DNA of 44,166 bases from Bacteroidia bacterium (GTDB taxonomy: Bacteria; Bacteroidota; Bacteroidia; Bacteroidales; VadinHA17). Under the pieces are notes generated by a model. It ran no database searches, was not told the origin of the DNA, and saw only the letters and a list, made by a program, of their open reading frames with translations. The position numbers were made by a program, and so were the translations under genes. Below are positions 29,685-44,113 of this stretch, one piece after another. How positions within the stretch are numbered: position 1 is the stretch's first letter; every line of letters starts with the position of its first letter. The stretch is taken from contig JAPLEC010000435.1 of the NCBI GenBank assembly GCA_026391515.1, positions 1-44,166 of the forward strand, read 5' to 3'.

Positions 29685-29686
29685 TG

Positions 29687-30028
29687 CTACTCTCCTTCTA
29701 TACTTTTTATAAATAATTCTTTTCCATGAATGATTTCCAGGTCAGTTGACCTGCAATTAGCGCATACAAACCTATTTTCTTCCACCCCGAAATCGTTTCC
29801 GCACTTTTTGCAAATCATCTTTACAGAAACTATTTCAATATTTACTTCAGCATCCTGTGCGATTGTATTTCTTACTGTTTCGCTGAAAGCAAAAATAAAA
29901 ATATCAGGAACAATCTGCACCAGCACTCCAAAGCTGATATTCACCTTTGTCACCTTCGAAAGTTTCTCACGTTTCGCTGTTTCAAGCACGATGGCCGAGA
30001 GATCTTCTGCTATTCTTATTTCGTGCAT
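29687..30028 (-). CDS. hypA: Hydrogenase nickel metallochaperone
   Basis: N-terminal MHE, CKKC...CANC. Confidence 0.95.
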   Translation of the reverse strand: MHEIRIAEDLSAIVLETAKREKLSKVTKVNISFGVLVQIVPDIFIFAFSETVRNTIAQDAEVNIEIVSVKMICKKCGNDFGVEENRFVCANCRSTDLEIIHGKELFIKSIEGE

Positions 30029-30038
30029 AACTTATTTA

Positions 30039-31046
30039 TTAACAGATTCTTGGAAGCTGCGCTCCTGAAGGCATATCAAGAATACGTTTTCCTCCAACGG
30101 ATGTATTTAGCACTACAAGGTTTCTTTTATCCGGTACTATTTCTCCAAATATAGAAGAGAATGCTCCCAATGCATCAGACCTGAGAATTTCAAGCACTTT
30201 TTCTGCCTCCTCTGCACTAGTAACAATTAATAGCTTCCCTTCATTTGCAAGATAGAGTGGATCAAATCCAAGTATTTCACATACTCCTCTAACCGGATCA
30301 TCAACAGGTATTGACGCCTCATCAGCGATAATACCTGAATTTATCATCCCAGCCAGCTCATTCATAACACCAGCAAGACCTCCCCTGGTCAGGTCGCGCA
30401 TAAAATGAATCTCTTTGCAGCTTTTCAGAACACCCTCTATAAGATGGTTCAGCGATGCACAATCAGAAGTTACAGGAGTGGTGAAGCTGAGCTTGTTACG
30501 GGCCCCGGCGACAGCGATGGAATGATTCCCCAGCGGACCATTAATAATCAGCTTATCACCCGGTTTAATGCGTTTGCCGGTACTGATATGCTCCTGACTG
30601 TAATCAAGGATTCCTGTTCCGGAAGTCGTAATGAAAAGTCTGTCGCATTTTCCCTTTTCCACAACTTTCGTATCTCCTGTCACTATTTTCACTCCTGCGT
30701 TCGTTGCTTCATCAGCCATTGATTCTGCAATTGTGACAAGATCGTTTACAGGAAAACCCTCTTCAATAATAAATGAAGCTGCGATATATTTTGGTTCTGC
30801 ACCCGAAACTGCCAGGTCATTCACTGTACCACAGATGGCAAGCTTCCCAATGTTGCCACCGGGGAAAAATAGTGGATCAATAACATAGGAATCCGTAGTA
30901 AAAACCAGAGTTTTTCCCATCTCTTTAAGAATAGCAGAATCGGTTAAAGGCTCAGTCATTCCGAATTTCTTCACAAACACTTTTTTAATCAGTTCATGTG
31001 TCTGCTTGCCACCGCTTCCATGATTTAAAGAGATAAGATCATTCAT
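30039..31046 (-). CDS. hypE: Carbamoyl dehydratase
   Basis: HGSGG, TTDSY, GDTKVV, MRDLTRGG, C-terminal PRIC. Confidence 0.96.
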   Translation of the reverse strand: MNDLISLNHGSGGKQTHELIKKVFVKKFGMTEPLTDSAILKEMGKTLVFTTDSYVIDPLFFPGGNIGKLAICGTVNDLAVSGAEPKYIAASFIIEEGFPVNDLVTIAESMADEATNAGVKIVTGDTKVVEKGKCDRLFITTSGTGILDYSQEHISTGKRIKPGDKLIINGPLGNHSIAVAGARNKLSFTTPVTSDCASLNHLIEGVLKSCKEIHFMRDLTRGGLAGVMNELAGMINSGIIADEASIPVDDPVRGVCEILGFDPLYLANEGKLLIVTSAEEAEKVLEILRSDALGAFSSIFGEIVPDKRNLVVLNTSVGGKRILDMPSGAQLPRIC

Positions 31047-32128
31047 CTGACTATTTTGTATTTATACCATGTATTGCATGAACCTTCATTAGAAACCATA
31101 CATGCTCCTACAGGGTTTTCAGGGACACAAATATTTGCAAAGAGAGGACACTGCTCAGGTGTTTTCATTCCTCTCAGTATCTCCCCGCAGATGCACCGGC
31201 TGTCATCCTCCTTATAATCGATTGAAACAGGCACCTGAATATCAGCATTGAACTTTCCATAATTATTCTGCAAACGGAGTCCGCTGGATGGGATCACTCC
31301 AAATCCTCTCCAGATTGCATCACAAGGTTCGAAAACTTCTTTTAAATCTTTCTGAGCTATGGTATTCCCTTTCACTGTGACTGCACGTTTGTATTGTATC
31401 TCAACGAAAGGGGAACTGTTATTTACCTGGGTTATCAGCATCAGAATTGACTGCAATAAATCTGTCGGTTCAAAGCCGGTTATAACACAACCTATTTTAT
31501 ATTTCTCAGGGATGAAGCCGAAAATTGAAGAGCCTGTTATGGCAGCAACATGTCCCGGACAAATAAATCCATCAATATTAACTCCTTCACTTACAATAGC
31601 TTCCATTGCAGGAGGCATAATTTTATGAGCGCTAAGTACAAAGAAATTATTAATGTCCTCTTTATCAGCCTGCTTAACAGTGACTGCAGTTCCGGGAGCT
31701 GTTGTTTCAAAACCTATTGCCAGGAAGATAATTTTCTTATCTGGATTTGCTCTTGCGATCTCCAGCGCTTCAAGACCCGAAAAAACAACTCTTATATCTG
31801 CTCCTTTCACTCTCTTTTTTTCAAGTGAAGAAGCTGATCCGGGAACTCTTACCAGGTCTCCGAAAGTGGTTATGATCACATCCTCCATCTCAGAATAAGT
31901 AACAGCCTTATCAATGAAATCAGTACCTGTGACACAGACAGGGCAGCCAGGGCCTGAGATCAGCCTGATCTTTTCTGAAAGCAATGATGGAATGCCGAAT
32001 CTGTGTATCGCGGCCGTATGACCACCGCACACTTCCATAAAGGTATAATCGTGTATGACTGACTTATTTATCTGACTCGACAGATTCTCTATCAGATCCT
32101 TATCCCTGTATTCATCTATAAACTTCAT
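31043..32128 (-). CDS. hypD: Hydrogenase Fe(CN)2CO scaffold
   Basis: EVCGGH, GPGCPVC, GFETT, PGHV, GACMVS. Confidence 0.97.
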   Translation of the reverse strand: MKFIDEYRDKDLIENLSSQINKSVIHDYTFMEVCGGHTAAIHRFGIPSLLSEKIRLISGPGCPVCVTGTDFIDKAVTYSEMEDVIITTFGDLVRVPGSASSLEKKRVKGADIRVVFSGLEALEIARANPDKKIIFLAIGFETTAPGTAVTVKQADKEDINNFFVLSAHKIMPPAMEAIVSEGVNIDGFICPGHVAAITGSSIFGFIPEKYKIGCVITGFEPTDLLQSILMLITQVNNSSPFVEIQYKRAVTVKGNTIAQKDLKEVFEPCDAIWRGFGVIPSSGLRLQNNYGKFNADIQVPVSIDYKEDDSRCICGEILRGMKTPEQCPLFANICVPENPVGACMVSNEGSCNTWYKYKIVR

Positions 32129-32130
32129 AC

Positions 32131-32355
32131 TTATTCATTCAGGGTATCACTAATTTCTTTCAGTATCTTAAGTGTTTCAGCTGCCTCTTCTTCACTGATT
32201 TTCTGAATCGCAAATCCGGCATGGAGCAGTATATAATCTCCGACTTTTGCATTTTCGATCATATGCAAGCCTGCTTTAAATAAGCTTCCTCCGACAGAAA
32301 CTTCTGCCATGCTGCCATCGATCGACACAATCTTTGCTGGAATACTCAGACACAT
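32131..32355 (-). CDS. hypC: Hydrogenase maturation chaperone
   Basis: MCLSIP N-terminus, VGDYILLHAGFA. Confidence 0.96.
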   Translation of the reverse strand: MCLSIPAKIVSIDGSMAEVSVGGSLFKAGLHMIENAKVGDYILLHAGFAIQKISEEEAAETLKILKEISDTLNE

Positions 32356-34589
32356 TATCTTATTCGTTTTGAAGCGATTACAAGCTGACCAAGGGATATT
32401 CCTCCGTCATTTGGCGGCACCAGGCGATTAGTAAAAACTTTAAACTTGTTCCGGGTTAAAAGATATAAAGATTTTTCCAGAAGATATTTATTCTGAAAGA
32501 CCCCTCCTGAAAGAATTACTTTTTTGAGAGATGTCTCTGCTCTTATTTGCCTGGCCACTTCCAGAATTACCTGCGCAACAGTGTTATGAAATTTTGCTGA
32601 TATTATGGAGATCGTCTGTACTGGCAAATCATTTATAATTGCTTTCAGAGTTTCCGAAAATTCAATAGGTTTTTCTGCAATGAACGGATATATATCATCT
32701 GTTTTATCATTGATTGCCGACTCTAGCCTCATGGGAGCTTCAGAATCAAATGTGGCAACACTGCAAAGCCCGAGAATTGATGATACCGCATCAAAAAGAC
32801 GTCCCGCACCGGAAGACACTGGTGAATTCATTTTCATTTCCAGCATCTCCTTAACCATTTGTAGTTTCTTTTCATCAATTGAATTAAAAAGTGAAATTGA
32901 TTTAAAGTTAAAACTATTCTCAAAGTATTTATAAATATATGAAAAAGCTGTTCTCCATGGTTCATCAATTGCTTTATCACCACCGGGTAAAGCAATATTG
33001 TCGAAATGCGTGAAACGGCTGAAATCTTTCAGATCAGCAATAATAAACTCACCGCCCCATATATTTCCGTCTGAACCATAACCTGTTCCATCCAGACTGA
33101 TTCCAATAACTTTTTCATCGATCCCGAGTTCAGCCATGCATGATGCGATATGAGCATGATGGTGCTGAATCCTGAAAAGAGGTATTTTCAGTTCTTTTTC
33201 AAGAGCTTCAGCATATTGACCAGAAAGATAGTCAGGATGAAGATCACATGCAATGTATTTCGGCTTAAATCTGAAGAGTTTTGAAAACCGGTCAATTGCT
33301 TCGCTGAAGAAATCGTAGGTAGCAAGATTTTTCAGATCGCCTATGAACTGGCTCATTACAGCCTGGTTTCCTTTTCCGATGCAAAAGCTGTTTTTCTGTT
33401 CTGATCCAACTGCAAGTATACCTTCGACATTGCACTTAACTTCTACAGGACGTGGTACAAATCCTCTCGATCGACGTATCAGACTTTCTTTGTTGTTAAT
33501 TATTCTGATTACGGAATCATCAGTTCTGTTGAGTATCTGTCTGTTATAGCTCAGCAGAGAATCAGCAATCGGCATTAACTTTTTTTCAGCAAGCAGGTCA
33601 TCTGTAATTATCGGTTCATCCGAGATGTTGCCGCTGGTCAAAACAACTACTGGAGTTTTGAGCATCCTGAAAAGCATGTAATGGACAGGCATATAGGGAA
33701 GCATCGCTCCTATTGTGGTAAGTCCGTTGCTTACCTGCTCAGCTAATAATTTTTTCTGTCTAAGGATTAATATTGGTCTTCGCCATGATTTCAGCGCTTT
33801 TTCCTCTTCATCTTCAATGTAACAATACTTTTTGGCAGCATTTATACCTCTGAACATGACGGCAAAAGGCTTAGAATCTCTTTGTTTCTTTTGTCTTAGA
33901 TTTCTTACAGCATCGTTATTTAAAGCATCGCACATAAGATGATAACCTCCCAGACCTTTAATTGCTACTGTTTTTCCTGAAGATATCTGGACAGAAACCT
34001 CTTCGAGTATCTCCTTTATATTACTGAGGTTTTTCACAGGATCTTTATAACTGTAAACCGGTCCGCAGGAATTGCAGGCTATAGGCTGCGCGTGAAAGCG
34101 CCGGTCAAGGATGTCGTTATATTCCACGCTGCAGCTTTTACACATCCTGAAGCTTTTCATGGTAGTTTTTTGCCGGTCAAAAGGTAATTCTTCAATGATT
34201 GTAAAGCGAGGGCCGCAATTTGTACAATTAACAAAAGGGTAATCAATTCTTTCAGGATCTTTCTCCAGGTCATCAAGACAGTCCTGGCAGACAGCAATAT
34301 CTGGGCTCACTTCAGTAATCTGATTATCAAGTATTTTGCTTGCAACAATTTTGAAGCTATTAAATGCGGCTGATTGTATTTCGTTAATTTCTATCGATTT
34401 GATCTGTGATGCAGGAGGGGCATTCCGGAGAATATCATTGCTGAATTTATCGATCGTCTTAATATCGCCATTAACTATCACTCGAACACCATCGGTTCTG
34501 TTATCTACTTCTCCAAAGAGATCATATTTTGCGGCCATTCTGCAGATAAAAGGGCGGAATCCAACACCCTGAACCAGCCCTTTGATCAA
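32355..34589 (-). CDS. hypF: Carbamoyltransferase (5' end uncertain, see findings)
   Basis: GLVQGVGFRPF, zinc fingers CQDC/CTNCGPR/CKSC/CNSCGP, QHHHAH, DGTGYG, NDGGISLGQ. Confidence 0.95.
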   Translation of the reverse strand: MIKGLVQGVGFRPFICRMAAKYDLFGEVDNRTDGVRVIVNGDIKTIDKFSNDILRNAPPASQIKSIEINEIQSAAFNSFKIVASKILDNQITEVSPDIAVCQDCLDDLEKDPERIDYPFVNCTNCGPRFTIIEELPFDRQKTTMKSFRMCKSCSVEYNDILDRRFHAQPIACNSCGPVYSYKDPVKNLSNIKEILEEVSVQISSGKTVAIKGLGGYHLMCDALNNDAVRNLRQKKQRDSKPFAVMFRGINAAKKYCYIEDEEEKALKSWRRPILILRQKKLLAEQVSNGLTTIGAMLPYMPVHYMLFRMLKTPVVVLTSGNISDEPIITDDLLAEKKLMPIADSLLSYNRQILNRTDDSVIRIINNKESLIRRSRGFVPRPVEVKCNVEGILAVGSEQKNSFCIGKGNQAVMSQFIGDLKNLATYDFFSEAIDRFSKLFRFKPKYIACDLHPDYLSGQYAEALEKELKIPLFRIQHHHAHIASCMAELGIDEKVIGISLDGTGYGSDGNIWGGEFIIADLKDFSRFTHFDNIALPGGDKAIDEPWRTAFSYIYKYFENSFNFKSISLFNSIDEKKLQMVKEMLEMKMNSPVSSGAGRLFDAVSSILGLCSVATFDSEAPMRLESAINDKTDDIYPFIAEKPIEFSETLKAIINDLPVQTISIISAKFHNTVAQVILEVARQIRAETSLKKVILSGGVFQNKYLLEKSLYLLTRNKFKVFTNRLVPPNDGGISLGQLVIASKRIR

Positions 34590-35269
34590 TATTTCATATC
34601 CTTGTATAATAGCTCGAGGTTTTTAAGTCCGTCAACTTTTATCTGTTTGTGAACATAATAGATAACGCTTTCAAGCTCATCGCATAGATTCACATTACTA
34701 ATAATAACATCCTGCGGTACTTTCAGAAGAACAGGAGCAAAATTCACAATACCTTTAATTCCATGTCTTATAAGCTTATCAGCGACCTCCTGCGCAGATA
34801 TTTCGGGGACAGCCAGGATTGCCACTTTTACTCTGAACCTGTCGACAATTTCCTTTAACCGGTCCATGGAATATACCGGGATATCAGACCTTTGCTTTTG
34901 TTTGAAAGGATCAATGTCGAAAGTCGCAACAATATTCATATTGCGTTGAACAAACTTACTGTATTTCGACAGGGCAAGACCAAGGTTACCCATTCCTATA
35001 AGAACTAAATTGTGATCTTTGTTGCGATGGAAAATTTTTTCCATCTTTTCAAGAAGATCATTAATATCATATCCTCCCCGTTTATTCCCTTTTATGCCGA
35101 ACTCTGAAAAATCTTTTCTGACCTGTTCGGATGTCACACCGGTCTCATTTGCAAGCGTGTATGAGAAGACCTTTTCGACTCCCATAAGCCTTAGTCTGAC
35201 CAGGCATGCCCGGTAAAGAAAAATTCTTTTCAGGCTGTTTTTTATTATATATTTTGTGATTTGTTTCAC
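34586..35269 (-). CDS. rex: Redox-sensing transcriptional repressor
   Basis: SEQVRKDFSEFG..G..GGY DNA-binding segment, GMGNLG Rossmann motif, IVNFAP. Confidence 0.93.
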   Translation of the reverse strand: MKQITKYIIKNSLKRIFLYRACLVRLRLMGVEKVFSYTLANETGVTSEQVRKDFSEFGIKGNKRGGYDINDLLEKMEKIFHRNKDHNLVLIGMGNLGLALSKYSKFVQRNMNIVATFDIDPFKQKQRSDIPVYSMDRLKEIVDRFRVKVAILAVPEISAQEVADKLIRHGIKGIVNFAPVLLKVPQDVIISNVNLCDELESVIYYVHKQIKVDGLKNLELLYKDMKY

Positions 35270-35271
35270 AT
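35254..35271. promoter_or_regulatory. Rex operator overlapping the rex GTG start
   Basis: TTGTGAT-TTGT-TTCACAT, 12/14 match to TTGTGAA-N4-TTCACAA. Confidence 0.75.
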
Positions 35272-35436: not shown

Positions 35437-35454
35437 ATGTGAATCTTCTCACAT
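35437..35454. promoter_or_regulatory. Rex operator 2 nt upstream of the hydrogenase operon ATG
   Basis: ATGTGAA-TCTT-CTCACAT, palindromic, 11/14 match to consensus. Confidence 0.75.
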
Positions 35455-35456
35455 AA

Positions 35457-36446
35457 ATGCAATATAAAAGCATAAGAAAAGAAGAGTGGGACAAAGCCTT
35501 AGAGGAGCTTTCCGAATCCCATACTATTTTTGCAAACGTCAGCAATGATTTCGGGCAGGACTATGAACTGATGAGACCTGCTGATATTATAAGAATCATA
35601 TATAACAAACCTAAACCTGCAACATCTCTTAAGAGTTTCTTCCTGCCTGTCAAAGAAAATGTAACTTCAGACAGAAAAGGTGGAAAGCCAAGAATTATTA
35701 TCGGAGTGCCAAACTGCGATATCGAAGGAATATGTTTGCTGGATGAGATATATCTCGATAAGGATTTTAATGATATTTTTTACAGGAAGCGCCGTGAGGA
35801 AACACTGTTGATTTCATCAGATTGTTTTGGTATTCAGGAGCATTGTCATTGTCTTTCTTATGGCTTTAAGCCTTATTCAACAAGTAATGCTGACCTGGCA
35901 ATAATCCACCTTAATGAATTGATTATCTTCAGGATAATAACCGAAAAGGGGTCCGATTTCATTAATAAAATCCCGTCAGCAACACCACTTGACGATAAAG
36001 AAATTCTATCGGCTATTGAAAAAGAGCATCTTGCAACTGAATCGTTGCTTTCAACAGCAAACAAAGGATTACCGGATTATAAGACGACCGGTAAGATCGT
36101 CGCTGAAGCAAAAAATGAAACCTGGAATAAGTATTCTTCCCATTGTGTTTCATGTGGTGCCTGTGCAACTATCTGTCCGACATGCACCTGCTTTCTTTTG
36201 ATTGATAAGCCGGGATTTGAAAAAGTAAAACAGCTGGATGCCTGCCAATACCCTGGTTTTGAAAGGGTTGCGGGAGGAGAAGATGCTTTGTTCGAACTTC
36301 AGAACCGCTTCAGAAACAGGTATATGTGTAAATATGTATGGAAGCCTGAAAAATTTAAATCGCTTGCCTGTACAGGTTGCGGACGATGTATCGAAGCATG
36401 TATAGGTAAAATAAACAAGAACGAACTTTTTATGGAATTTGCTTAA
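35457..36446 (+). CDS. AsrA / sulfhydrogenase beta-like 4Fe-4S dicluster protein
   Basis: GVPNCD, HCHC, CVSCGACATICPTCTCF, CTGCGRCIEAC. Confidence 0.88.
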   Translation: MQYKSIRKEEWDKALEELSESHTIFANVSNDFGQDYELMRPADIIRIIYNKPKPATSLKSFFLPVKENVTSDRKGGKPRIIIGVPNCDIEGICLLDEIYLDKDFNDIFYRKRREETLLISSDCFGIQEHCHCLSYGFKPYSTSNADLAIIHLNELIIFRIITEKGSDFINKIPSATPLDDKEILSAIEKEHLATESLLSTANKGLPDYKTTGKIVAEAKNETWNKYSSHCVSCGACATICPTCTCFLLIDKPGFEKVKQLDACQYPGFERVAGGEDALFELQNRFRNRYMCKYVWKPEKFKSLACTGCGRCIEACIGKINKNELFMEFA

Positions 36447-36454
36447 CAATTTGT

Positions 36455-37279
36455 ATGGCAAATAACCAGAACATATATAAACCCATAAAGGCAAAACTGA
36501 CAGATGTCATTGAGGAATCGCCTCTGATAAAGACATTTGTTCTTATTCCTGAAGAAGAGTTCTCGTTCAAAACAGGCCAATTCATTGAATTGTCTGTTGA
36601 CGGGATCGGGGAAGCTCCTTTTACCCCTTCTTCTTCCCCTCATGTTACGGATAAACTTGAAGTGACAATTATGAAAACAGGTTATGTAACTGAATACATG
36701 CATAATCTGAAGCCGGGAGGATACATGGGAATAAGGGGACCATACGGGCGAGGGTATCCTGTTGAAACTTTTTTCGGCAAGGAGGTGCTGATCCTTGGAG
36801 GCGGCTGCGGCCTTGCTCCCATCAGATCGTTATTGTATGCATTGGAACATGTGAAGGACAAACTAAAAAAAGTCATTCTTTGCTACGGATCGAAAACTCC
36901 GTCAGACTGTATTTATAAACCTCTTTTTGCCAGGCTGAACCAGATAGAAAAATTTGAAGCTTACCGAACTGTTGATAAAGCTGACGAAGAGTGGGATGGC
37001 TCAGTCGGTGTCGCTACCACATTGCTGAATACTATAAAAGTCGATATAAAGAATTCCGTAGCAGTTGTTTGCGGACCTCCGATCATGATGAAATTCGGAA
37101 CCATACGGATTATAGAAATGGGATACACCGATGATCAGATATACCTTTCTATGGAAAAAAATATGTCATGCGGTCTAGGTAAATGCGGTCATTGTATGAT
37201 GGGTGAATTCTTTGTCTGCAAAGATGGTCCGGTCTTTACATACAAAGAATTAAAAAATACCCCTGATATCTGGAAATAA
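36455..37279 (+). CDS. AsrB / sulfhydrogenase gamma-like FAD/NAD(P)H oxidoreductase with 2Fe-2S
   Basis: GQF, GEAPF, RGPYGRGY, GGGCGLAP, CGPPIMM, MSCGLGKCGHC..CKDGPVF. Confidence 0.9.
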   Translation: MANNQNIYKPIKAKLTDVIEESPLIKTFVLIPEEEFSFKTGQFIELSVDGIGEAPFTPSSSPHVTDKLEVTIMKTGYVTEYMHNLKPGGYMGIRGPYGRGYPVETFFGKEVLILGGGCGLAPIRSLLYALEHVKDKLKKVILCYGSKTPSDCIYKPLFARLNQIEKFEAYRTVDKADEEWDGSVGVATTLLNTIKVDIKNSVAVVCGPPIMMKFGTIRIIEMGYTDDQIYLSMEKNMSCGLGKCGHCMMGEFFVCKDGPVFTYKELKNTPDIWK

Positions 37280-37313
37280 AAATCCAGGGAAAATTTTAAT
37301 TAGTTGACGACAA

Positions 37314-37784
37314 ATGAAAACTGAGAGCAATAAAGTAATAATAGAAGACCTGAAAAAAATAAGGTTTTTCGAAGGATACAGCGATAAGCAACTGACTGCA
37401 ATTGTGGAGATGAGTTCTGTTAAAGAGTTCAAGGTTAAGGAAATACTTTTTGAACAATACGATGAACTCCATGATGTTGATATACTTCTTGAAGGTTCAT
37501 TATCGCTTGGAATAAGCCTGGCTCATGAAAAAAGAATTCACCTTGGTACTATTGAAGAAGGTCAGCTTTTTTCATGGTCGGCTGTATTCAGTCCTTATAT
37601 ATCAACTGCATGGGTAATGGCAATGAAACCGGCAAAAGTAATATCAATAAATGCAAAGCAGCTGAATAAAAAGATTGAAGAGGATTGCGATTTCGGATTT
37701 AAAACAATGTCAAAAATTGCCCAGACTATTTCGCACAGGTTAAGCGACACAAGATTCCAGCTTATGAACCAGATGACAATTTAA
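37314..37784 (+). CDS. Stand-alone cyclic-nucleotide-binding domain protein
   Basis: Crp-like beta-roll pattern (FFEG, ILFEQ, LLEGSLSL, GQLFSWSA); 156 aa, no C-terminal HTH. Confidence 0.8.
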   Translation: MKTESNKVIIEDLKKIRFFEGYSDKQLTAIVEMSSVKEFKVKEILFEQYDELHDVDILLEGSLSLGISLAHEKRIHLGTIEEGQLFSWSAVFSPYISTAWVMAMKPAKVISINAKQLNKKIEEDCDFGFKTMSKIAQTISHRLSDTRFQLMNQMTI

Positions 37785-37791
37785 AAAATAA

Positions 37792-37871
37792 ACCCCCTTC
37801 CCTGCTTTCCCCGCCAGCTGGCGGGGGAAGGAGTGAAAAGCATCCCGCTTAGGCGGGACGGGAAAGGGGGT
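37792..37871. repeat. REP-like inverted element with nested mini-palindromes
   Basis: accccc-ttccc...gggaaa-gggggt enclosing ccccgccagctggcgggg and tcccgcttaggcggga. Confidence 0.7.
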
Positions 37872-37905
37872 AAAAAAGAAAGAGTTAAAGTAAAAAAGAG
37901 TGATA

Positions 37906-38397
37906 ATGAAGATACTGATAGATATGATAAAGCTTCGTGCTGCCATGATTGAAAATTCAACCATGACATTGCCTGAAGCTTATTTCTATCCGTCAGCCAA
38001 TACTAATGGTCTTAAGACAATCCGTGAGCTTGCCACATTCAGGTTCACCTGCAGGAAATGCGAGGATGCTCCATGTATCAGCGTTTGTCCGGCAGAAGCT
38101 CTTGAAAAAGATGAAGATGGTATTATTACACGGTTTACCAATCTTTGTGTATCATGCAAATCGTGTGTTACAATCTGTCCGTTCGGCACAATGATGACCG
38201 ATTTTTTCAAGCATCACAGGAACAGGGATATTTTATATGATCTCAAAGATGGCAATGCTGTTGAAAAATTCATCAAAGCCTGTCCGGCAGGAACAGTAAC
38301 ACTTACCGATGAAGATGAGTCGCCTGCAAAGAATATTTACAGGCTCAATGATAAAGTACTGATAAAAGATTATTTATATATAACTGAAAAACAGTAA
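37906..38397 (+). CDS. HycB/CooF/DmsB-like Fe-S protein retaining two 4Fe-4S motifs
   Basis: CRKCEDAPCISVCP and CVSCKSCVTICPFG; ATG 37906 gives the family-like start MKILID. Confidence 0.8.
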   Translation: MKILIDMIKLRAAMIENSTMTLPEAYFYPSANTNGLKTIRELATFRFTCRKCEDAPCISVCPAEALEKDEDGIITRFTNLCVSCKSCVTICPFGTMMTDFFKHHRNRDILYDLKDGNAVEKFIKACPAGTVTLTDEDESPAKNIYRLNDKVLIKDYLYITEKQ

Positions 38398-38407
38398 ATT
38401 ACGACCT

Positions 38408-39340
38408 ATGGCAGTTAATTTGTTTTATTTTCTTGTCTTCCCCGGCCTGCTGTTTGCAGGAGTTGTCGGAGCCTTTCTTTCGTGGTTCGACAGGAAGATT
38501 TCTGCCAGGGTCCAGTTCCGCAAAGGGCCTCCACTGCTTCAACCTTTTTACGACTTCTTCAAATTACTATTGGTCAAGGAAACAATACTTCCAAAGCACG
38601 GATCTCCGTTGGTATTTCTGATAGCACCCATCTTTGCGGTTTTTGGTGCGACAATGGCTGGAGTTTTCATTCTTCTACCTTTATTTAATATAACTACCGG
38701 CTTCAGGGGCGATCTGCTTGTCATATTCTACTTGCTGACAATCCCTTCATTTTCGTATATCATCGGAGCACTTGCTTCGGGTAATCCGCTTGCAGCTGTC
38801 GGTGGTTCAAGGGAGATGAAGCTTATAATCAGCTACGAGCTTACCTTCCTTCTGGTTATTGCCGGCGTTATAATGAAATGTGGACAGAAATTTGATCTCG
38901 ACTCAATAATTCAAACACAGCAGGCAGGATCTCCGTTTATCGGAAGCATTTCAGGTGTCCTGTTATTTATTGCAGGTATATTTTGCATCCAGGCTAAGCT
39001 GGCGCTCGTTCCATTCGACATGCCTGAAGCGGAAGCTGAAATAACTGAAGGAATTTTTATTGAATATTCCGGAGCCGCTTATGCGATGATAAAGCTTACA
39101 AAATATATTATGTTTTTCATATTGCCGGCTTTTCTTATTGCACTGTTAATGAACGGATTCAAATTGGAAGGGATCGGTATTTTGTGGGCAGTGCTTAAAG
39201 TTCTGGCAGTTGTTCTGGCTCTCACTTTAATAAAGAACACAAATCCGAGGATAAAGATCAAGCAGGCTATAAGCTTCTTCTTAATCTGGATGAATCTGTT
39301 GGTAGTTATTGCCCTGGTACTAATTGCATTTGGTTATTAA
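38408..39340 (+). CDS. Group 4 hydrogenase membrane subunit (NuoH/MbhM/EchB-like)
   Basis: DRKISARVQFRKGPP, QPFYDFFKLL, PFDMPEAE, IEYSG, NPR. Confidence 0.92.
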   Translation: MAVNLFYFLVFPGLLFAGVVGAFLSWFDRKISARVQFRKGPPLLQPFYDFFKLLLVKETILPKHGSPLVFLIAPIFAVFGATMAGVFILLPLFNITTGFRGDLLVIFYLLTIPSFSYIIGALASGNPLAAVGGSREMKLIISYELTFLLVIAGVIMKCGQKFDLDSIIQTQQAGSPFIGSISGVLLFIAGIFCIQAKLALVPFDMPEAEAEITEGIFIEYSGAAYAMIKLTKYIMFFILPAFLIALLMNGFKLEGIGILWAVLKVLAVVLALTLIKNTNPRIKIKQAISFFLIWMNLLVVIALVLIAFGY

Positions 39341-39439
39341 GAGCGTGTAATAAATGTTTAAATGAATATTATAAATCGTAAATTGATAATTTGATTAAGT
39401 ATTAATAAAGTGTTGTAATATTTTTCTTATTACACACTC
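39341..39439. mobile_element. 99-bp MITE-like element with 13-bp terminal inverted repeats and TAA target duplication
   Basis: TAA|GAGCGTGTAATAA...TTATTACACACTC|TAA; 12/13 IR match; very AT-rich interior. Confidence 0.65.
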
Positions 39440-39453
39440 TAAATATAATAGTT

Positions 39454-39864
39454 GTGGGTTTTAAAAATTATTGCTTCAAAAAATCGCTCTGGGTCTTCCA
39501 TTTCGGAGGAGCCTCCTGCAATAATTGTGATATTGAGATTCTGGATTGTCTGACACCGAGACATGACCTTGAACGATTTGGAATTCTTCTGGTGGGAAGC
39601 ATAAGGCATGCCGATGTTCTGCTTGTAAACGGGTCTATAAACATGCATGATAAAGAGCGACTTATTGAGGTTTATAACCAGGCTCCGAAACCGATACTTG
39701 TTATTGCTATTGGTGCGTGCGGATGTACAGGAGGATTTTTCACCGAGAGTTATACATTTGCAGGACCAGTTGATAAAATCATCCCGGTCGATGCGTACGT
39801 TCCGGGGTGTCCTCCAAAACCGGAAGCGATTATAGCGGGGATTGTGAAGCTGTTGAATAAATAG
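39454..39864 (+). CDS. Group 4 [NiFe]-hydrogenase small subunit (NuoB/MbhJ/EchC-like)
   Basis: SCNNCDIE, RHADVL, GACGCTGG, PGCPPKPE. Confidence 0.93.
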   Translation: MGFKNYCFKKSLWVFHFGGASCNNCDIEILDCLTPRHDLERFGILLVGSIRHADVLLVNGSINMHDKERLIEVYNQAPKPILVIAIGACGCTGGFFTESYTFAGPVDKIIPVDAYVPGCPPKPEAIIAGIVKLLNK

Positions 39865-39872
39865 CACCCATA

Positions 39873-40013
39873 GATCCCCTCCTAGGAGGGGCAAGGGGTG
39901 GGTTTTAAAAGATAAAAGACAAAAGATAAAAGAAAAAAGAAAAAAACAAAAGATCCCCTCCTAGGAGAGCCTGTCCCGCGTAGCTTTAGCGAAGTGGGGG
40001 CAAGGGGTTGGTT
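39873..40013 (+). repeat. Two REP-like CCCCTCC hairpins separated by AAAGAYA heptamers; second copy has a 30-bp insert
   Basis: gatcccctcctaggaggggcaaggggtgggtt at 39873; same element at 39952 interrupted at 39968-39997. Confidence 0.85.
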
Positions 40014-40035
40014 AAAAAAACTGAATATCAGTTAA

Positions 40036-40479
40036 ATGGATACAAAAACGATCATAGGAGAATTTAAAGAGAAATTTAAATCTGCTATTCTTGGTGAAGT
40101 AGCTAAGAATGAGAAGCGTGTGATCATTTCTATAAAACCTGATTCCATTTTGAAGGTTGCGGATTATTTATATAAAACTGATGGTTTCAGGTTTATTATT
40201 GCTTCAGCATTACATACAAAAGAAGGATTTGAGATCCATTACCATTTCAGTAAAGATGAAATCGGACTTATTCTCAACATACATGTCCTCCTCGATAAGA
40301 ATAAGCCGGAAATTGAATCACTATCGAACATGTTCAATGCTTCGAACTGGATAGAACGGGAGATGCATGAACTGTTAGGCATCAATTTTCTGAATCATCC
40401 GAATCAGGAGAAGCTGATTTCGGAAGGTAACTGGGCTGAAGGAATTTATCCATTACGAAAGGAATTTAAAAACTCGTAA
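40036..40479 (+). CDS. Group 4 hydrogenase NuoC/MbhK/EchD-like subunit
   Basis: YHFS, WIEREMHELLGINFLNHP, YPLRK. Confidence 0.9.
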   Translation: MDTKTIIGEFKEKFKSAILGEVAKNEKRVIISIKPDSILKVADYLYKTDGFRFIIASALHTKEGFEIHYHFSKDEIGLILNIHVLLDKNKPEIESLSNMFNASNWIEREMHELLGINFLNHPNQEKLISEGNWAEGIYPLRKEFKNS

Positions 40480-40487
40480 AAGAGACA

Positions 40488-41696
40488 ATGAGTAAGAAGA
40501 CACTTATACCGATCGGACCTTATCACCCATTGCAGGAAGAGCCTGAATTATTCAAGCTCTATTGTGACGGAGAGATTGTCAAGGACATTAAATGGGAAAC
40601 CGGGTATAACCACAGGGGAATTGAAAAACTCAGTGAATCAAAGACTTATGAGCAGATATTCTTCCTTGTTGAACGTATTTGCGGTATATGCTCAAATTCT
40701 CACCCGTTTGCTTTTGCCAACGCAGTTGAAGAGATAGCTGACATTGAACTTACAAACAGGGCAAAATATATCAGAACAATAATTGCAGAGCTTGAGCGGA
40801 TACACAGCCATTTGTTATGGGTCGGTCTTGCCGGGCACTTTCTGGGCTATAATACTGTTTTCATGTGGGCATGGAAATACCGCGAGCCTACTCTCGATCT
40901 TTTTGAAATGATCTCAGGAAACAGGAACAGCTATGCAATGTTTAAAGTGGGCGGTGTAAGAAGAGATATTGAAGAAGCAAAAATCCCTGTTATACAGAAA
41001 GTTCTGGATGATATTAAGAAGAAGACCGATCTGCTGACAGGTGCTGTGATGGATGATCCTGTCATTCACGCAAGAACAAAAGGAGTTGGCATTCTGACCA
41101 AGCAGGATGTCATTGATTATGGAGCTGTAGGCCCGACAGCAAGAGCTTCTGGTCTGGCAATCGATGTACGAAAGGATGATCCTTATGCAGCTTACCCGCT
41201 GGTTAACTGGAAAGTGATTACCGCAGAAGCCGGTGATGTATTCGCTAAAGCCCAGGTCAGATTACTCGAGATGTACGAATCAATATCAATTATTGAACAA
41301 TGTCTCGATGGTCTTAAAAAGGAAAAAGAGGGAGCCATTGAGGTAAAAGTCAAGGAGATTCCCGAGGGAATTGGCAATGGCCGGGCAGAAGCACCACGCG
41401 GCGAAGTGTTCCACTTTGTGCAGTCGGATGGATCTAATTCACCCGTCAGGCATAAGATACGGGCTCCAAGCTATGTAAATATTGCGACCTTCAGAAAATC
41501 GTGTGTAGGACAGACTATTGCCGACGCAACAATTTCATTGGCTGCAGTTGATCCATGTTATTGCTGCACTGAACGTATGGCAGTCGCTTATGACAATAGT
41601 TCAGGTAAAAAGATCCTGAACGCAAAGGAATTAATTGATCTTTCAATATTGAAAACAGCGGAAATAAAGAAAACTTTATCAGGACGGAATGAATGA
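40488..41696 (+). CDS. Group 4 [NiFe]-hydrogenase large subunit
   Basis: GPYHP, HRGIEK, L1 ERICGICSNSH, EAPRGE, RAPS, L2 DPCYCCTER. Confidence 0.95.
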   Translation: MSKKTLIPIGPYHPLQEEPELFKLYCDGEIVKDIKWETGYNHRGIEKLSESKTYEQIFFLVERICGICSNSHPFAFANAVEEIADIELTNRAKYIRTIIAELERIHSHLLWVGLAGHFLGYNTVFMWAWKYREPTLDLFEMISGNRNSYAMFKVGGVRRDIEEAKIPVIQKVLDDIKKKTDLLTGAVMDDPVIHARTKGVGILTKQDVIDYGAVGPTARASGLAIDVRKDDPYAAYPLVNWKVITAEAGDVFAKAQVRLLEMYESISIIEQCLDGLKKEKEGAIEVKVKEIPEGIGNGRAEAPRGEVFHFVQSDGSNSPVRHKIRAPSYVNIATFRKSCVGQTIADATISLAAVDPCYCCTERMAVAYDNSSGKKILNAKELIDLSILKTAEIKKTLSGRNE

Positions 41697-43563
41697 GTTT
41701 ATCTCCATATTTACACGACCTGTTGACAGCCAGGTTCTGCAATTCATTATCTTATTGCCCATCCTTGGGGGGTTATTACTTCTTTTCATTCCTGAGAAAT
41801 TCAGAACTTATAAAGGGCTGATTGCTATTCTGATAAGTGTCATTACAGGTTATTTGACAATTGTTATTTATCGTTCAGAAAACCAGATGCTGAGCCAGGA
41901 TCAGTTGTTTTCAGGATCACTCCTGCTTCATGGTTTTGGCAGGTTTCTGACATTCAACATCGATAATCTGAGTAAGCTGATTATTTTGTTTATCAGTCTC
42001 TTTGCTCTCTTAATTCTTGTATACTCAATTGTTTATATTAAAGAAGGAAGAGTTAAGAATTATTATCCTTATTTCCTGATTACCCTTGGCTGTTCATACG
42101 GAGCCATTTTGTCTGATAATCTTCTTCTGTTTCTGTTCTTCTGGGGAATCCTCGGACTGACATTATATAAGCTTATCCATGGTCATGATGAAGAGAGCTC
42201 GGCAACAGCCAAGAAAACTCTTATTCTGATTGGTGCGTCCGATAGCATTATGATTATAGGAATAGCCATAATCTGGAAAATTACAGGTTCGCTGAGCATG
42301 GGTGGAGTAAAAGTGCCGACCACGAATATTGTTTCAGTGGTTGCTTTCCTGGCTTTGCTGACAGGCAGTTTTACCAAGGCAGGTGCCTTCCCTTTCCATA
42401 CCTGGGTCCCTGATTATGCAAAGAGTGCTCCTGCTTCTTCATCGGCTTACCTTCCGGCATCACTTGATAAGCTCCTTGGGATATATTTTCTTGCGAGGAT
42501 TACCACTGATATGTTTGTGCTTAATGGATTCCTGACTTTTCTGCTTCTCTTAACAGGCGTCATAACGATTATTATTGCCGTTATGATGGCCCTTATTCAA
42601 CATAATTACAAAAGATTGCTTGGATTCCATGCCGTGTCCCAGGTTGGATATATGATCCTTGGACTTGGCCTTGGATCAACGATTGGTGTTGCAGCCGGTC
42701 TTTTCCATATGGTTAACCATGCTCTCTATAAGAGTGGACTTTTTCTGTCTGCCGGAAGTATTGAATATCGTACTGGAAAAGAAGAAATTGAAGATCTGGG
42801 TGGCTTGTCAAAAGCAATGCCGATTACCTTCTTTGCATCTCTCGTCTTTGCCATGTCGATTTCAGGAGTGCCTCCATTCAACGGGTTTGCTTCCAAATGG
42901 ATGATCTACCAGGGAATAATTGATTTTGGTTCAGGTACCGGAATTGCAAACAAGTTATGGATATTATGGCTTGGTCTGGCAGTACTTGGATCGGCTCTTA
43001 CGCTGGCAAGTTTCATTAAACTTATTGGAGGAATCTTCCTGAGCAGAAGGAAAGCAGAGTTTGAAAATATAAAGGAAGTTCCCGTGATAATGTGGTTACC
43101 ATTGGTTATTCTCTCTGTATTTTGTATCCTGTTTGGTGTATTTGCGACAAAAGTTGTATCTAAATTATTCATGCCGATAACTGGTCCATTTAAATTCACA
43201 GGGTTCTGGGATTCTTCATTTGTTTCACTACTTGTTATTATCTCACTGATTCTTGGAATAATACTTTATCTTGCTCTTAATATTAAAAAATTCAGGACTG
43301 AAGATAGCTTTATAGGCGGTGAAAGAATTCAGGACCGGACCAGTTATGCAACAACGGAGTTCTATAAGACTATTGGGGAATTTAAATTTTTCTCCTGGAT
43401 ATATAAAAAAGCTGAAGAGCGGTGGTTCGATTTATATGATTTATGCAAACAATTTGTGCTCTGGCTGAGCCACCAATTGAGTGAAGCTCATTCAGGTGTG
43501 TTAACGGGGTATATTATCTGGGTCTGTGCCGGACTGATTATTATGTTGCTCATTATGATATAA
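41689..43563 (+). CDS. Antiporter-like membrane subunit (NuoL/MrpA/HyfB-like)
   Basis: KAGAFPFHTWVP, KRLLGFHAVSQVGY, NHALYKSGLFL, SGVPPFNGFASKW, FIGGE. Confidence 0.9.
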   Translation: MNEFISIFTRPVDSQVLQFIILLPILGGLLLLFIPEKFRTYKGLIAILISVITGYLTIVIYRSENQMLSQDQLFSGSLLLHGFGRFLTFNIDNLSKLIILFISLFALLILVYSIVYIKEGRVKNYYPYFLITLGCSYGAILSDNLLLFLFFWGILGLTLYKLIHGHDEESSATAKKTLILIGASDSIMIIGIAIIWKITGSLSMGGVKVPTTNIVSVVAFLALLTGSFTKAGAFPFHTWVPDYAKSAPASSSAYLPASLDKLLGIYFLARITTDMFVLNGFLTFLLLLTGVITIIIAVMMALIQHNYKRLLGFHAVSQVGYMILGLGLGSTIGVAAGLFHMVNHALYKSGLFLSAGSIEYRTGKEEIEDLGGLSKAMPITFFASLVFAMSISGVPPFNGFASKWMIYQGIIDFGSGTGIANKLWILWLGLAVLGSALTLASFIKLIGGIFLSRRKAEFENIKEVPVIMWLPLVILSVFCILFGVFATKVVSKLFMPITGPFKFTGFWDSSFVSLLVIISLILGIILYLALNIKKFRTEDSFIGGERIQDRTSYATTEFYKTIGEFKFFSWIYKKAEERWFDLYDLCKQFVLWLSHQLSEAHSGVLTGYIIWVCAGLIIMLLIMI

Positions 43564-43577
43564 ATAACTCAAGCTAA

Positions 43578-44105
43578 ATGGAAATTGCCATATCCATAAT
43601 AACCGGGTTGATGATCTTGGGAGCGTTGTACGCCATTCATGCAAAAGATCTGCTTTCAGCTGTGATAGCTTGCGGCATTGTCGGCTATGGTCTGGTGATA
43701 TGTTTCCTTCTTCTTAAAGCTCCTGACCTTGCAATTGTTCAAATTGTTGTGGAGACAATCACTCTTATTATTATGGTTGCCGTTGTTCTTGACAGCTCAA
43801 GGGAAGAAAAATTCTCAAAACCCGATCCACAGGAATATATTTCAATTGTAACGAGCATATTTTTTATTGTGATATTGTTCTACTTCTTTAAGATAGCTAT
43901 AGGTAGTCTTGATGCATTTGGTGAAAGCACACTGCGTATGGCAGGTCCTTATATTGAAGGAGCGACTGCAAAAACAGGCAGCGCTAATCTTGTTACAGGT
44001 GTCGTTTTTGATTTCAGAGGATATGACACCATGGGTGAAGCAACGGTTCTGGTAACTGCAGTGCTGGGGGTATTGACAATCTTACGCATTAAAGGAAAAA
44101 AATAA
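43578..44105 (+). CDS. Fused MbhD/MbhE-like (DUF4040 + MnhB-type) Mrp-module subunit
   Basis: [10 protein letters not shown] and [18 protein letters not shown]. Confidence 0.85.
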
Positions 44106-44113
44106 AATACAAG

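What the first reader, a model, noticed from the sequence alone, without database searches (positions are those of the whole stretch)
35457..44105. Hybrid energy-converting hydrogenase: group 3b/AsrAB-type NAD(P)H module joined to a group 4 Mrp-linked [NiFe] complex
Seen: one co-oriented run of AsrA/beta-like, AsrB/gamma-like (FAD, NAD(P)H, 2Fe-2S), cNMP-binding, polyferredoxin, NuoH-, NuoB-, NuoC-like, Ni-binding large subunit, NuoL-like and MbhDE-like genes. Known: beta/gamma pairs normally serve soluble group 3b hydrogenases or AsrC, and group 4 enzymes normally take electrons from ferredoxin, formate or CO. Neither AsrC nor group 3b delta/alpha subunits are in view. Inference: an ion-translocating NAD(P)H:H+ oxidoreductase, i.e. 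a complex-I-like machine with a non-NuoEFG input module and H2 in place of quinone. I know of no biochemically characterised example, but cannot confirm novelty without a search.
Basis: partly seen in the sequence, partly recalled or inferred. Interest (0 to 1): 0.88.

Follow-up and report, generated by a model that had tools for sequence, protein, structure and literature searches.

The report
Rex-controlled Hun membrane hydrogenase operon
This is a Bacteroidales copy of the already named but never purified "Hun" complex, a membrane-bound nickel-iron hydrogenase fused to a sodium/proton antiporter and to a flavoprotein that probably handles NAD(P)H, here placed under an NADH-sensing repressor.

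Summary
Window 35457-44105 holds ten co-oriented genes with the stated domains, and the large subunit keeps both Ni-binding Cys pairs. The contig ends inside the operon. The rest lies on contig C232 and is complete in relatives: MnhB-G, a NuoI-like protein and a HycI protease. No asrC or group 3b genes follow it.

The arrangement is not new. It matches the 16-subunit "Hun" supercomplex of Glass et al. (bioRxiv 10.1101/536078), including the HunG signature CGIC...CYCC. That paper lists Bacteroidetes MAGs and Kosmotoga and proposes ferredoxin as donor.

HunA+HunB precede the hydrogenase in 56 of 57 genome loci and 30 of 30 metagenome loci with enough upstream sequence. HunB keeps invariant FAD, NAD(P) and 2Fe-2S motifs.

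Not mentioned in that text: a divergent rex gene and two Rex-box palindromes sit directly upstream. rex is adjacent in 58 of 64 loci and a box is present in 62 of 64.

My reading is an NAD(P)(H)-linked, ion-coupled, Rex-controlled hydrogenase. The donor and the direction are inferred, not shown.

The parts
29019..34589 (-). hypB (29019-29684), hypA (29687-30028), hypE (30039-31046), hypD (31043-32128), hypC (32131-32355), hypF (32355-34589): [NiFe] maturation genes, downstream of rex on the minus strand
   Evidence: NCBIfam equivalog hits. All are above their cut-offs except hypA (80.4 vs 88.1 bits).
34586..35269 (-). rex, redox-sensing (NADH/NAD+) transcriptional repressor, divergent from the hydrogenase operon
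   Evidence: NF003996 Rex, 215.8 bits against a cut-off of 138. Adjacent and divergent in 58 of 64 related loci.
35255..35270 (.). Rex-box-like palindrome TGTGA-N6-TCACA, overlapping the annotated start of rex
   Evidence: Exact match. Conserved in relatives. The consensus TTGTGAANNNNTTCACAA comes from passages of PMC6391272.
35438..35453 (.). Second Rex-box-like palindrome, ending 4 nt before the hunA ATG
   Evidence: Exact match. These are the only two exact matches in the 44-kb window, and both lie in this 187-nt spacer. Conserved in relatives.
35457..36446 (+). HunA: AsrA / sulfhydrogenase-beta-like iron-sulfur subunit
   Evidence: Fer4_22 7.5e-22. P. furiosus SH1 beta, 9nez_B, 2.7e-30, with shared Cys clusters. 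14 invariant Cys in 22 orthologues.
36455..37279 (+). HunB: AsrB / sulfhydrogenase-gamma-like flavoprotein (FAD, NAD(P)-binding, [2Fe-2S])
   Evidence: Pfam domains. SH1 gamma, 9nez_C, 2e-49. Cofactor motifs invariant in 70 sequences.
37314..37784 (+). Accessory stand-alone cNMP-fold protein without a DNA-binding domain
   Evidence: PF00027 at 35 bits. Model pLDDT 80. Best fold match is 3mdp, a stand-alone putative cNMP-binding protein, then CRP/FNR sensor domains. Present in 28 of 57 loci and truly absent from the rest.
37900..38397 (+). HunC: 2x[4Fe-4S] HydN/HycB-like connector protein
   Evidence: Fer4_11. 8 invariant Cys in 21 orthologues.
38408..39340 (+). NuoH / MbhM-like membrane anchor (HunD by gene order)
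   Evidence: PF00146, 7.9e-63.
39454..39864 (+). NuoB-like small subunit (HunE by gene order)
   Evidence: PF01058, 2.5e-30.
39865..40035 (.). 171-nt gap holding GC-rich palindromic REP-like repeats. The same element ends the contig at about 44110-44166, and a similar one lies at about 37790-37875.
   Evidence: The same gap is 28 nt in relative G004.
40036..40479 (+). NuoC-like subunit (HunF by gene order)
   Evidence: PF00329, 3.2e-23.
40488..41696 (+). HunG: [NiFe] large subunit with the CGIC...CYCC signature and a 39-residue C-terminal extension
   Evidence: MbhL, 6cfw, 2.7e-86 and HycE, 7z0s, 1.2e-77. 120 of 120 close homologues share the signature.
41689..43563 (+). NuoL / MrpA-N-like antiporter subunit (HunH by gene order)
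   Evidence: PF00361, 5.1e-57. Matches positions 2-524 of MrpA model PRK12648.
43578..44105 (+). MbhD+MbhE, the MrpA C-terminal equivalent (HunI by gene order). The operon continues on contig C232.
   Evidence: C232:15-4105 carries MnhD, E, F, G, a NuoI-like protein, HycI and a 139-aa protein.

Best explanation
The locus is a Bacteroidales member of the Hun family. Hun is an Mbh/Mrp-type group 4 [NiFe] hydrogenase: a NuoH/B/C/D/I-like core plus a complete Mrp antiporter set. Its peripheral arm is extended by HunC (2x[4Fe-4S]), HunA (a multi-cluster FeS protein) and HunB (FAD, an NAD(P)-binding site and a [2Fe-2S] cluster).

Proposed path, all inferred: NAD(P)H reduces the HunB flavin. Electrons then pass through the HunB [2Fe-2S], the HunA clusters, HunC, the NuoI-like subunit and the NuoB-like subunit to the Ni-Fe site, where protons become H2.

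NADH to H2 is endergonic under standard conditions. The Mrp module therefore most likely couples the reaction reversibly to the Na+/H+ gradient. Ion influx would drive NADH-dependent H2 release when H2 is not very low. In reverse, H2 oxidation to NAD(P)H would export ions.

Rex, encoded divergently with two operator-like boxes over the promoter region, would release the operon when NADH/NAD+ rises. That fits a role as a valve for NADH.

Shown: gene content, motifs, conservation, and the rex and box linkage. Inferred: complex formation, NAD(P)H use, direction, and the ion coupled.
For: 1. Membership of Hun. The gene order and content match the published description. The full set is present in relatives and on C232. 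The HunG CGIC...CYCC signature is present. The nearest named relative is Kosmotoga at 60% identity, and the paper lists Kosmotoga as hun-bearing.

2. The hydrogenase looks functional. Both Ni-binding motifs are present, hypFCDEAB lie adjacent, and a HycI protease is in the operon.

3. HunAB is a fixed part of the operon. It is present in 56 of 57 genome loci, in G352 from another class, and in 30 of 30 metagenome loci spanning 55-90% HunG identity. Gaps between genes are 8-34 nt, or the genes overlap.

4. The nucleotide site is under selection. The FAD motif, the GGGCGxAPIRS NAD(P) motif and the [2Fe-2S] Cys motif are invariant in 70 sequences. The closest solved relative is the FAD/NADPH subunit of SH1.

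5. No other client enzyme was found. AsrC is over its cut-off in 0 of 5 genomes. G004 (100% complete) and G001 (99%) have no second PF00374 hit.

6. Rex linkage. rex is adjacent in 58 of 64 loci, and at least one box is present in 62 of 64. A second, divergent clade has rex co-directional directly upstream in 6 of 7 loci.
Against: - No biochemical, structural or expression data exist for any Hun complex in the library searched.
- The only published proposal names ferredoxin as donor.
- Rex also controls ferredoxin-dependent Ech in C. bescii and CODH/ECH in Parageobacillus. The Rex link therefore does not prove direct NADH use.
- rex is not adjacent in 0 of 18 loci of the largest metagenome clade.
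- The window already encodes a trimeric HydABC-type [FeFe] hydrogenase with a NuoF-like NADH subunit. An NADH-to-H2 route may therefore already exist.
- NADH versus NADPH could not be told apart.
- MnhB and MnhC are missing from this assembly (genome 92% complete).
Confidence: 0.55

Rival explanations
1. Ferredoxin-driven Hun, as published. HunABC accept electrons from reduced ferredoxin and pass them to the Ni-Fe site. H2 evolution pumps H+/Na+ outward as in Pyrococcus MBH. The HunB nucleotide site would be vestigial or regulatory.
For: Proposed by Glass et al.. The closest solved enzyme, MBH, is ferredoxin-dependent (and passages of PMC8165549). Ferredoxin to H2 leaves free energy for outward pumping. 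Rex control is also known for ferredoxin-dependent Ech.
Against: MBH takes ferredoxin without any such module. Three extra subunits with an invariant FAD/NAD(P) site, kept in 86 of 87 loci, are hard to explain as a mere ferredoxin adaptor.
Confidence: 0.25
2. Uptake direction as the physiological role. This would be an H2:NAD(P)+ oxidoreductase that conserves the roughly 18 kJ/mol as an ion gradient, or a redox hub that can send ferredoxin or H2 electrons to NAD(P)+.
For: The direction is exergonic under standard conditions (listing abstract of PMC7064455). The full Mrp set includes two antiporter-like subunits. SH1-type beta/gamma modules work reversibly with NADP(H); this last point is recalled, not from a call.
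Against: By the usual model, Rex derepresses when NADH is high (passages). That fits an NADH consumer, not a producer. These genomes are fermenter-like, with Rnf and several [FeFe] hydrogenases.
Confidence: 0.13
3. HunAB is a separate soluble oxidoreductase that is merely co-transcribed and does not dock on the membrane complex.
Against: The order hunA-hunB-hunC-core is fixed across clades that share only 55-60% HunG identity. No alternative catalytic partner was found in complete relatives.
Confidence: 0.05

Closest known systems
Hun supercomplex (Glass et al., bioRxiv 10.1101/536078; Atribacteria, Firmicutes, Omnitrophica, Elusimicrobia and Bacteroidetes MAGs, and Kosmotoga isolates)
   Same: AsrAB-like HunAB without AsrC. 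An FeS protein, HunC. A NuoH/B/C/D-like hydrogenase core. An Mrp set. A NuoI-like last subunit. The HunG signature CGIC...CYCC.
   Different: This lineage adds several features the paper's text does not mention: a divergent rex-hypFCDEAB unit with Rex boxes, an optional cNMP-fold gene between hunB and hunC, and HycI plus a 139-aa Cys-rich protein after the last subunit. My donor reading is NAD(P)H, theirs is ferredoxin. Their Fig. 3 and Table S5 could not be seen.
Pyrococcus furiosus MBH (PDB 6cfw), HydDB group 4d
   Same: It is the best solved match of the large subunit (2.7e-86). It shares the Mrp-derived membrane arm and the NuoB/C/D/H/I-like core.
   Different: MBH takes ferredoxin directly and has no HunABC (passages of PMC8165549). 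Hun keeps both MrpA- and MrpD-like subunits.
E. coli formate hydrogenlyase (PDB 7z0s), group 4a
   Same: It is the second-best solved match (1.2e-77). An input enzyme is wired through a HycB-type FeS protein. The large subunit has a C-terminal extension, and there is a HycI protease (HycE processing is recalled, not from a call).
   Different: The input in FHL is formate dehydrogenase, not a flavoprotein. FHL has no full Mrp Na+ module.
P. furiosus sulfhydrogenase I beta/gamma (PDB 9nez), group 3b, and Salmonella AsrAB
   Same: HunA and HunB share fold family, Cys clusters, and FAD/NAD(P)/[2Fe-2S] motifs with these proteins.
   Different: Scores fall below every equivalog cut-off. There are no delta/alpha or AsrC partners.
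Saganbacteria RX5A group 4 cluster (Matheus Carnevali et al. 2019, PMC6349859)
   Same: asrA, asrB and a cooF-like gene lie beside an Mrp-linked group 4 hydrogenase (passages).
   Different: That cluster also carries a molybdopterin oxidoreductase. None is present here.

Membership tests
Hun supercomplex | Gene order: AsrA-like, AsrB-like, FeS protein, NuoH-, NuoB-, NuoC-like, large subunit, Mrp set, NuoI-like (16 subunits) | tested here: met
   The window holds the first nine, plus one accessory gene. MnhD-G and the NuoI-like gene lie on C232. The full order is seen in G004 and in 58 of 59 loci with enough downstream sequence. MnhB and MnhC are not assembled in this genome. The letter-to-gene mapping is my inference from the paper's text.
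Hun supercomplex | HunG metal-site signature CGIC...CYCC | tested here: met
   120 of 120 close homologues carry it. Only 4 of 150 50%-identity representatives carry CYCC.
Hun supercomplex | AsrC absent | tested here: met
   TIGR02912 is over its cut-off in 0 of 5 genomes. The best hit is 31 bits against a cut-off of 324.
Hun supercomplex | HydDB class 4g, but a separate cluster in the sequence similarity network | not testable with these tools
   HydDB is not on hand. Indirectly, the nearest 50%-identity clusters are at 60% identity (Kosmotoga and one unnamed), and the next are at or below 48%.
Group 4 [NiFe] hydrogenase, Mrp-linked | L1 RxCGxCxxxH and L2 DPCxxCxxR motifs in a NuoD-like subunit | tested here: met
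   PF00346 and PF00374 hits.
Group 4 [NiFe] hydrogenase, Mrp-linked | NuoB/C/H/I-like partners and MrpA-G equivalents in one operon | tested here: met
Group 4 [NiFe] hydrogenase, Mrp-linked | H2 turnover coupled to ion translocation | not testable with these tools
   This needs biochemistry.
Anaerobic sulfite reductase AsrAB | Score at or above the equivalog cut-off | tested here: not met
   AsrA 116.3 against 323.15 bits. AsrB 204.1 against 288.6 bits.
Anaerobic sulfite reductase AsrAB | Siroheme subunit AsrC encoded alongside | tested here: not met
Group 3b sulfhydrogenase beta/gamma | Equivalog score, and adjacent delta and alpha subunits | tested here: not met
   ShyB 129 against 690, HydB 108 against 750, HydG 172 against 650. 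No delta or alpha gene is in or after the operon. A 3b-like alpha fragment does exist elsewhere, on the 1963-b contig C230.
Rex regulon | rex gene present, and operators matching TTGTGAANNNNTTCACAA in the promoter region | tested here: met
   Consensus. Actual binding was not tested.
Complex I with NuoEFG N-module | NuoE/F/G-type NADH input in the operon | tested here: not met
   No such domains occur in the ten genes or in the downstream genes. The NuoE- and NuoF-like genes at 26177-27818 belong to the [FeFe] hydrogenase cluster.

The most novel reading that the evidence does not exclude
Hun is a membrane-bound hydrogenase that lets fermenters dispose of NAD(P)H as H2 without electron confurcation. 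It would pay the roughly 18 kJ/mol uphill step with Na+/H+ influx through its Mrp module, and run backwards as an energy-conserving H2:NAD(P)+ oxidoreductase. In Bacteroidales it would be switched on by Rex when NADH accumulates. That would be a new bioenergetic enzyme class: the NAD(P)H counterpart of MBH and Ech.
Probability: 0.4. Interest if true: 0.8.

Novelty: new member of a known kind. Interest (0 to 1): 0.5.

Why it matters
HunG-type genes are abundant in public data. All 120 listed hits of the large subunit are 85-89% identical. More than 500 matching stretches were found in species-representative genomes and more than 570 in JGI metagenomes. The record titles name sources such as peat, fen, lake sediment and wastewater.

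Yet the enzyme has only a gene-cluster description and a guessed donor. If the flavoprotein really couples NAD(P)H to H2 through an ion gradient, H2 budgets and energy models for anoxic fermenters would need a new term, and complex-I evolution would gain an alternative NADH input module.

The Rex linkage and the cultured carrier Kosmotoga make the question directly testable.

Tried and rejected
- Complex prediction of HunA (alignment A1) with HunC (alignment A2): verdict 'no answer', score 0.00. This is no evidence either way.
- The look-up of sequencing runs for RNA holders of window 35200-41700: none was listed. Co-transcription could therefore not be examined, and read laying was not used.
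The Kosmotoga locus itself could therefore not be read.
- HydDB is not available.
Table S5 and Fig. 3 of Glass et al., which list the Bacteroidetes MAGs and the gene maps, were not seen. Supplementary Fig. 3e of PMC6349859 was not seen either.
- I considered that the beta/gamma-like pair serves a soluble group 3b enzyme, and rejected it. G004 and G001 lack any other [NiFe] large subunit. G352 has a separate Fer4_22 gene about 3 kb upstream of its own second large subunit.
- I considered that the second AsrAB-like pair on C238 is the true partner, and rejected it. It sits in an HdrA-MvhD cluster.
- The window-wide count of Rex-box matches with up to 1 mismatch is not by itself significant: 4 found, 1.7 expected, and 9 of 100 shuffles reach 4. 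The case rests on two exact matches in one 187-nt spacer and on their conservation.
- Literature searches for a characterised NAD(P)H-linked Mbh, or for follow-ups of Hun, found none in the held library.
- Counting caveats. Locus L030 lacks hits for several genes and was not examined further. L054 had no qualifying large-subunit hit. At least two loci duplicate others: L022 is the same contig as L028, and L023 the same as L063. The clades were set by me, from HunG identity and the L2 motif.

Full report
**What is there.** The flagged stretch holds ten co-oriented ORFs on the + strand.
- an AsrA / sulfhydrogenase-beta-like FeS protein (35457-36446);
- an AsrB / gamma-like FAD/NAD(P)/[2Fe-2S] flavoprotein (36455-37279);
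- a small cNMP-fold protein (37314-37784);
- a two-cluster HydN/HycB-like FeS protein (37900-38397);
- NuoH-, NuoB- and NuoC-like subunits;
- a NuoD-like large subunit (40488-41696);
- a NuoL / MrpA-N-like subunit;
- an MbhD+MbhE protein equivalent to the C-terminus of MrpA.

The large subunit keeps RICGICSNSH and DPCYCCTER, followed by a 39-residue C-terminal tail. It is therefore a true [NiFe] hydrogenase subunit and not an Mbx/Ehr-type relic. Its best solved relatives are MbhL of Pyrococcus MBH (2.7e-86) and HycE of E. coli FHL (1.2e-77).

**The operon is cut by the assembly.** The window is the whole contig C423. It ends in a roughly 50-nt repeated intergenic element that also lies between the NuoB- and NuoC-like genes. 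In the same-genus genome G004 (5 contigs) the ten genes are followed by nine more:
- MnhB, MnhC (NuoK-like), MnhD, MnhE, MnhF and MnhG;
- a 206-aa NuoI-like 2x[4Fe-4S] protein;
- a HycI-type endopeptidase;
- a 137-aa protein of no family.

Transketolase comes next. In the window's own genome, MnhD through the 139-aa protein lie at the start of contig C232. MnhB and MnhC are not assembled (genome 92% complete). Nothing resembling asrC or group 3b delta/alpha follows the operon.

**Conservation.** A scan of species-representative genomes returned 80 loci. All are uncultured Bacteroidales or Bacteroidia MAGs by their record titles, with the large subunit 82-98% identical.
- 57 loci have at least 5300 b upstream. 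56 of them carry the AsrA- and AsrB-like genes directly upstream. The exception, L030, lacks hits for several genes and was not examined further.
- 59 loci have at least 8700 b downstream. 58 of them carry the full downstream set through HycI.
- The cNMP-fold gene is present in 28 of 57 loci. Where it is absent the gap between the neighbouring genes is 85 nt or less, so it is a true presence/absence polymorphism.

Orthologues occur in 12 of 24 same-genus genomes and in 1 of 16 other genomes of the order. In an even sample of the phylum they occur in only 1 of 400 genomes. That one genome, G352, belongs to another class. It has the same operon with HunG 76%, AsrB-like 68% and AsrA-like 50% identical.

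**This is the published Hun complex.** Glass et al. (bioRxiv 10.1101/536078; section 8 read in full) describe a 16-subunit 'Hun' Ni-Fe hydrogenase / Na+/H+ antiporter supercomplex.
- HunAB resemble AsrAB, with AsrC missing. HunC is an FeS protein. HunEFGP form the hydrogenase. The remaining subunits are Mrp-like.
- HunG has a CGIC...CYCC signature. HydDB classes it as 4g, but it is distant from other 4g enzymes.
- The paper lists Atribacteria, Firmicutes, Omnitrophica, Elusimicrobia and Bacteroidetes MAGs, and Kosmotoga isolates.

The window's large subunit has exactly this signature. So do 120 of 120 close homologues, while only 4 of 150 50%-identity representatives of the wider family carry CYCC. 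The nearest named relative, at 60% identity, is the large subunit of Kosmotoga olearia / Kosmotoga sp..

A metagenome scan with a HunG alignment led by the Kosmotoga sequence gave 80 further loci with 55-90% identity to the window's HunG. All 30 loci with at least 5600 b upstream carry HunA+HunB.

An asrA/asrB/cooF module beside an Mrp-linked group 4 hydrogenase was also noted in Saganbacteria (passages of PMC6349859). The hybrid is therefore real and ancient, but it is not undescribed.

**Donor: NAD(P)H or ferredoxin?** Glass et al. propose ferredoxin. The words NADPH, FAD and Rex do not occur in their text. Four lines of evidence lead me to favour NAD(P)(H).
- HunB aligns over 241 residues with the FAD/NADPH gamma subunit of P. 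furiosus SH1 (2e-49).
- In 70 orthologues, HunB keeps the flavin motif, the GGGCGxAPIRS nucleotide motif, the CYGSxT and VCGPP motifs, and the four-Cys [2Fe-2S] motif invariant.
- HunA shares the Cys clusters of SH1 beta and has 14 invariant Cys.
- MBH needs no such module to take ferredoxin.

A flavoprotein with a conserved nucleotide pocket, kept in 86 of 87 loci, most simply means that NAD(P)(H) is a substrate. NADH and NADPH could not be told apart. HunA and HunB fall below every equivalog cut-off, so they are neither AsrAB nor ShyBC proper.

**No other client for the module.** AsrC is over its cut-off in 0 of 5 genomes. G004 (100% complete) and G001 (99%) have no [NiFe] large subunit other than HunG.

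The window's own genome does hold a 3b-like alpha fragment on the 1963-b contig C230. It also holds a second AsrAB-like pair on C238. That pair lies in an HdrA-MvhD cluster and shares only 28% and 36% identity.

**Rex.** Immediately upstream and divergent lies rex (216 bits against a cut-off of 138), followed by hypF, hypC, hypD, hypE, hypA and hypB.

The 187-nt spacer holds the only two exact TGTGA-N6-TCACA palindromes in the 44-kb window. They lie at 35255-35270 and 35438-35453, and the second ends 4 nt before the hunA start. They fit the Rex consensus TTGTGAANNNNTTCACAA (passages of PMC6391272).

Among 64 related loci with an upstream region, rex is adjacent and divergent in 58. At least one box (up to 1 mismatch) lies within 390 nt in 62, and most have two. 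The background is 219 sites in 1.47 Mb, a figure that includes these upstream sites. At least two of the 64 are duplicate contigs.

In the metagenome set:
- a divergent clade with a CYSC variant has rex co-directional directly upstream in 6 of 7 loci;
- the clade closest to the window has rex divergent in 3 of 6;
- the largest clade has rex adjacent in 0 of 18.

One caveat applies. Rex also controls ferredoxin-dependent Ech in C. bescii and CODH/ECH in Parageobacillus. The link shows control by redox state, not the donor.

**Mechanism and energetics.** NADH to H2 is endergonic by about 18 kJ/mol under standard conditions (listing abstract of PMC7064455). A forward-pumping 'complex I with H2 in place of quinone' is therefore unlikely.

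The complex carries a complete Mrp set with both MrpA- and MrpD-like subunits. I therefore propose reversible coupling. Ion influx would drive NAD(P)H-dependent H2 release, or the reaction would run near equilibrium at very low H2. In the other direction, H2 oxidation to NAD(P)H would export ions.

Derepression by Rex at high NADH favours the H2-evolving, NADH-consuming direction. These steps are inferred. Complex formation was not supported or refuted by the one docking job, and no RNA data were available.

The same window encodes a trimeric HydCBA [FeFe] hydrogenase (24375-27818) and the genome encodes Rnf. Hun would therefore be one of several redox valves.

**Accessory parts.** The cNMP-fold protein folds with confidence (pLDDT 80). 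It matches a stand-alone putative cNMP-binding protein (3mdp, 28% identity) and CRP/FNR sensor domains, without a DNA-binding domain. By my reading it lacks the canonical Glu/Arg of the phosphate-binding cassette, so its ligand is open. That motif is recalled, not taken from a call.

The last gene of the operon encodes a 139-aa protein with two CxxC pairs. It is known only as a Bacteroidota hypothetical protein.

**Verdict.** Novelty is a new member of a known but biochemically uncharacterised kind. The Rex linkage, the accessory genes and the NAD(P)H reading are additions to what is in print.

Noticed in passing
window 24375-27818 (- strand): A trimeric HydC (NuoE-like, 27351-27818), HydB (NuoF-like, 26177-27424) and HydA ([FeFe] hydrogenase, 24375-26156) cluster lies about 8 kb from the Hun operon. 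The same neighbourhood is seen in G004 and G001. No Rex-box match was found just upstream of it.
   Followed up: partly
window 37790-37875, 39865-40035, 44110-44166: GC-rich palindromic REP-like elements sit in three intergenic gaps of the operon, and one ends the contig. About a dozen related copies lie on other contigs. The NuoB/NuoC gap is 171 nt here and 28 nt in G004.
   Followed up: partly
G000 contig C238 (locus L108) 2-4966: A second AsrA/AsrB-like pair (28% and 36% identical) follows an HdrA-like protein, an MvhD/FlpD protein and a 266-aa protein of no family. This looks like a Flx/Hdr-type soluble cluster. The same kind of paralogue is present in G004 and G010.
   Followed up: partly
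G000 contig C230 (locus L007) 1323-1961: The C-terminal 212 residues of a group 3b-like [NiFe] large subunit (HydA model, 9.6e-39) run off a 1963-b contig. Its partner subunits were not found in the assembly.
   Followed up: partly
G000 contig C232 (locus L109) 3689-4105; L020 14527-14940: The last operon gene encodes a 137-139-aa protein with two CxxC pairs and no Pfam or NCBIfam family. By blastp it is present in nearly all related Bacteroidales loci with enough downstream sequence, and the protein atlas knows it only as a Bacteroidota hypothetical protein.
   Followed up: partly
loci L129, L132, L137, L139, L141, L149, L154, L156, L157, L159, L163, L164, L168, L169, L172, L181, L189: A HunG clade carries CYSC instead of CYCC in the L2 motif. 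In 6 of 7 of its loci with enough upstream sequence, rex lies co-directionally just before hunA. Several also carry a box upstream of rex.
   Followed up: partly
G352:C2:2001000-2020999 (locus L106): A genome of another class of the phylum carries a hun operon with HunG 76% identical, while 399 of 400 sampled phylum genomes have none. This hints at lateral transfer.
   Followed up: no
G000 contig C170 (locus L107): A separate NuoB/C/D/H...K-like cluster (NuoD-like 37% identical to HunG) is probably the 11-subunit complex-I-like enzyme. A copy of the REP-like element lies just after its NuoD-like gene.
   Followed up: no
window 21827-22894 (-), 23152-23772 (+): A DinB/IMS-family polymerase and an NADPH-dependent FMN reductase lie next to the [FeFe] hydrogenase cluster.
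   Followed up: no
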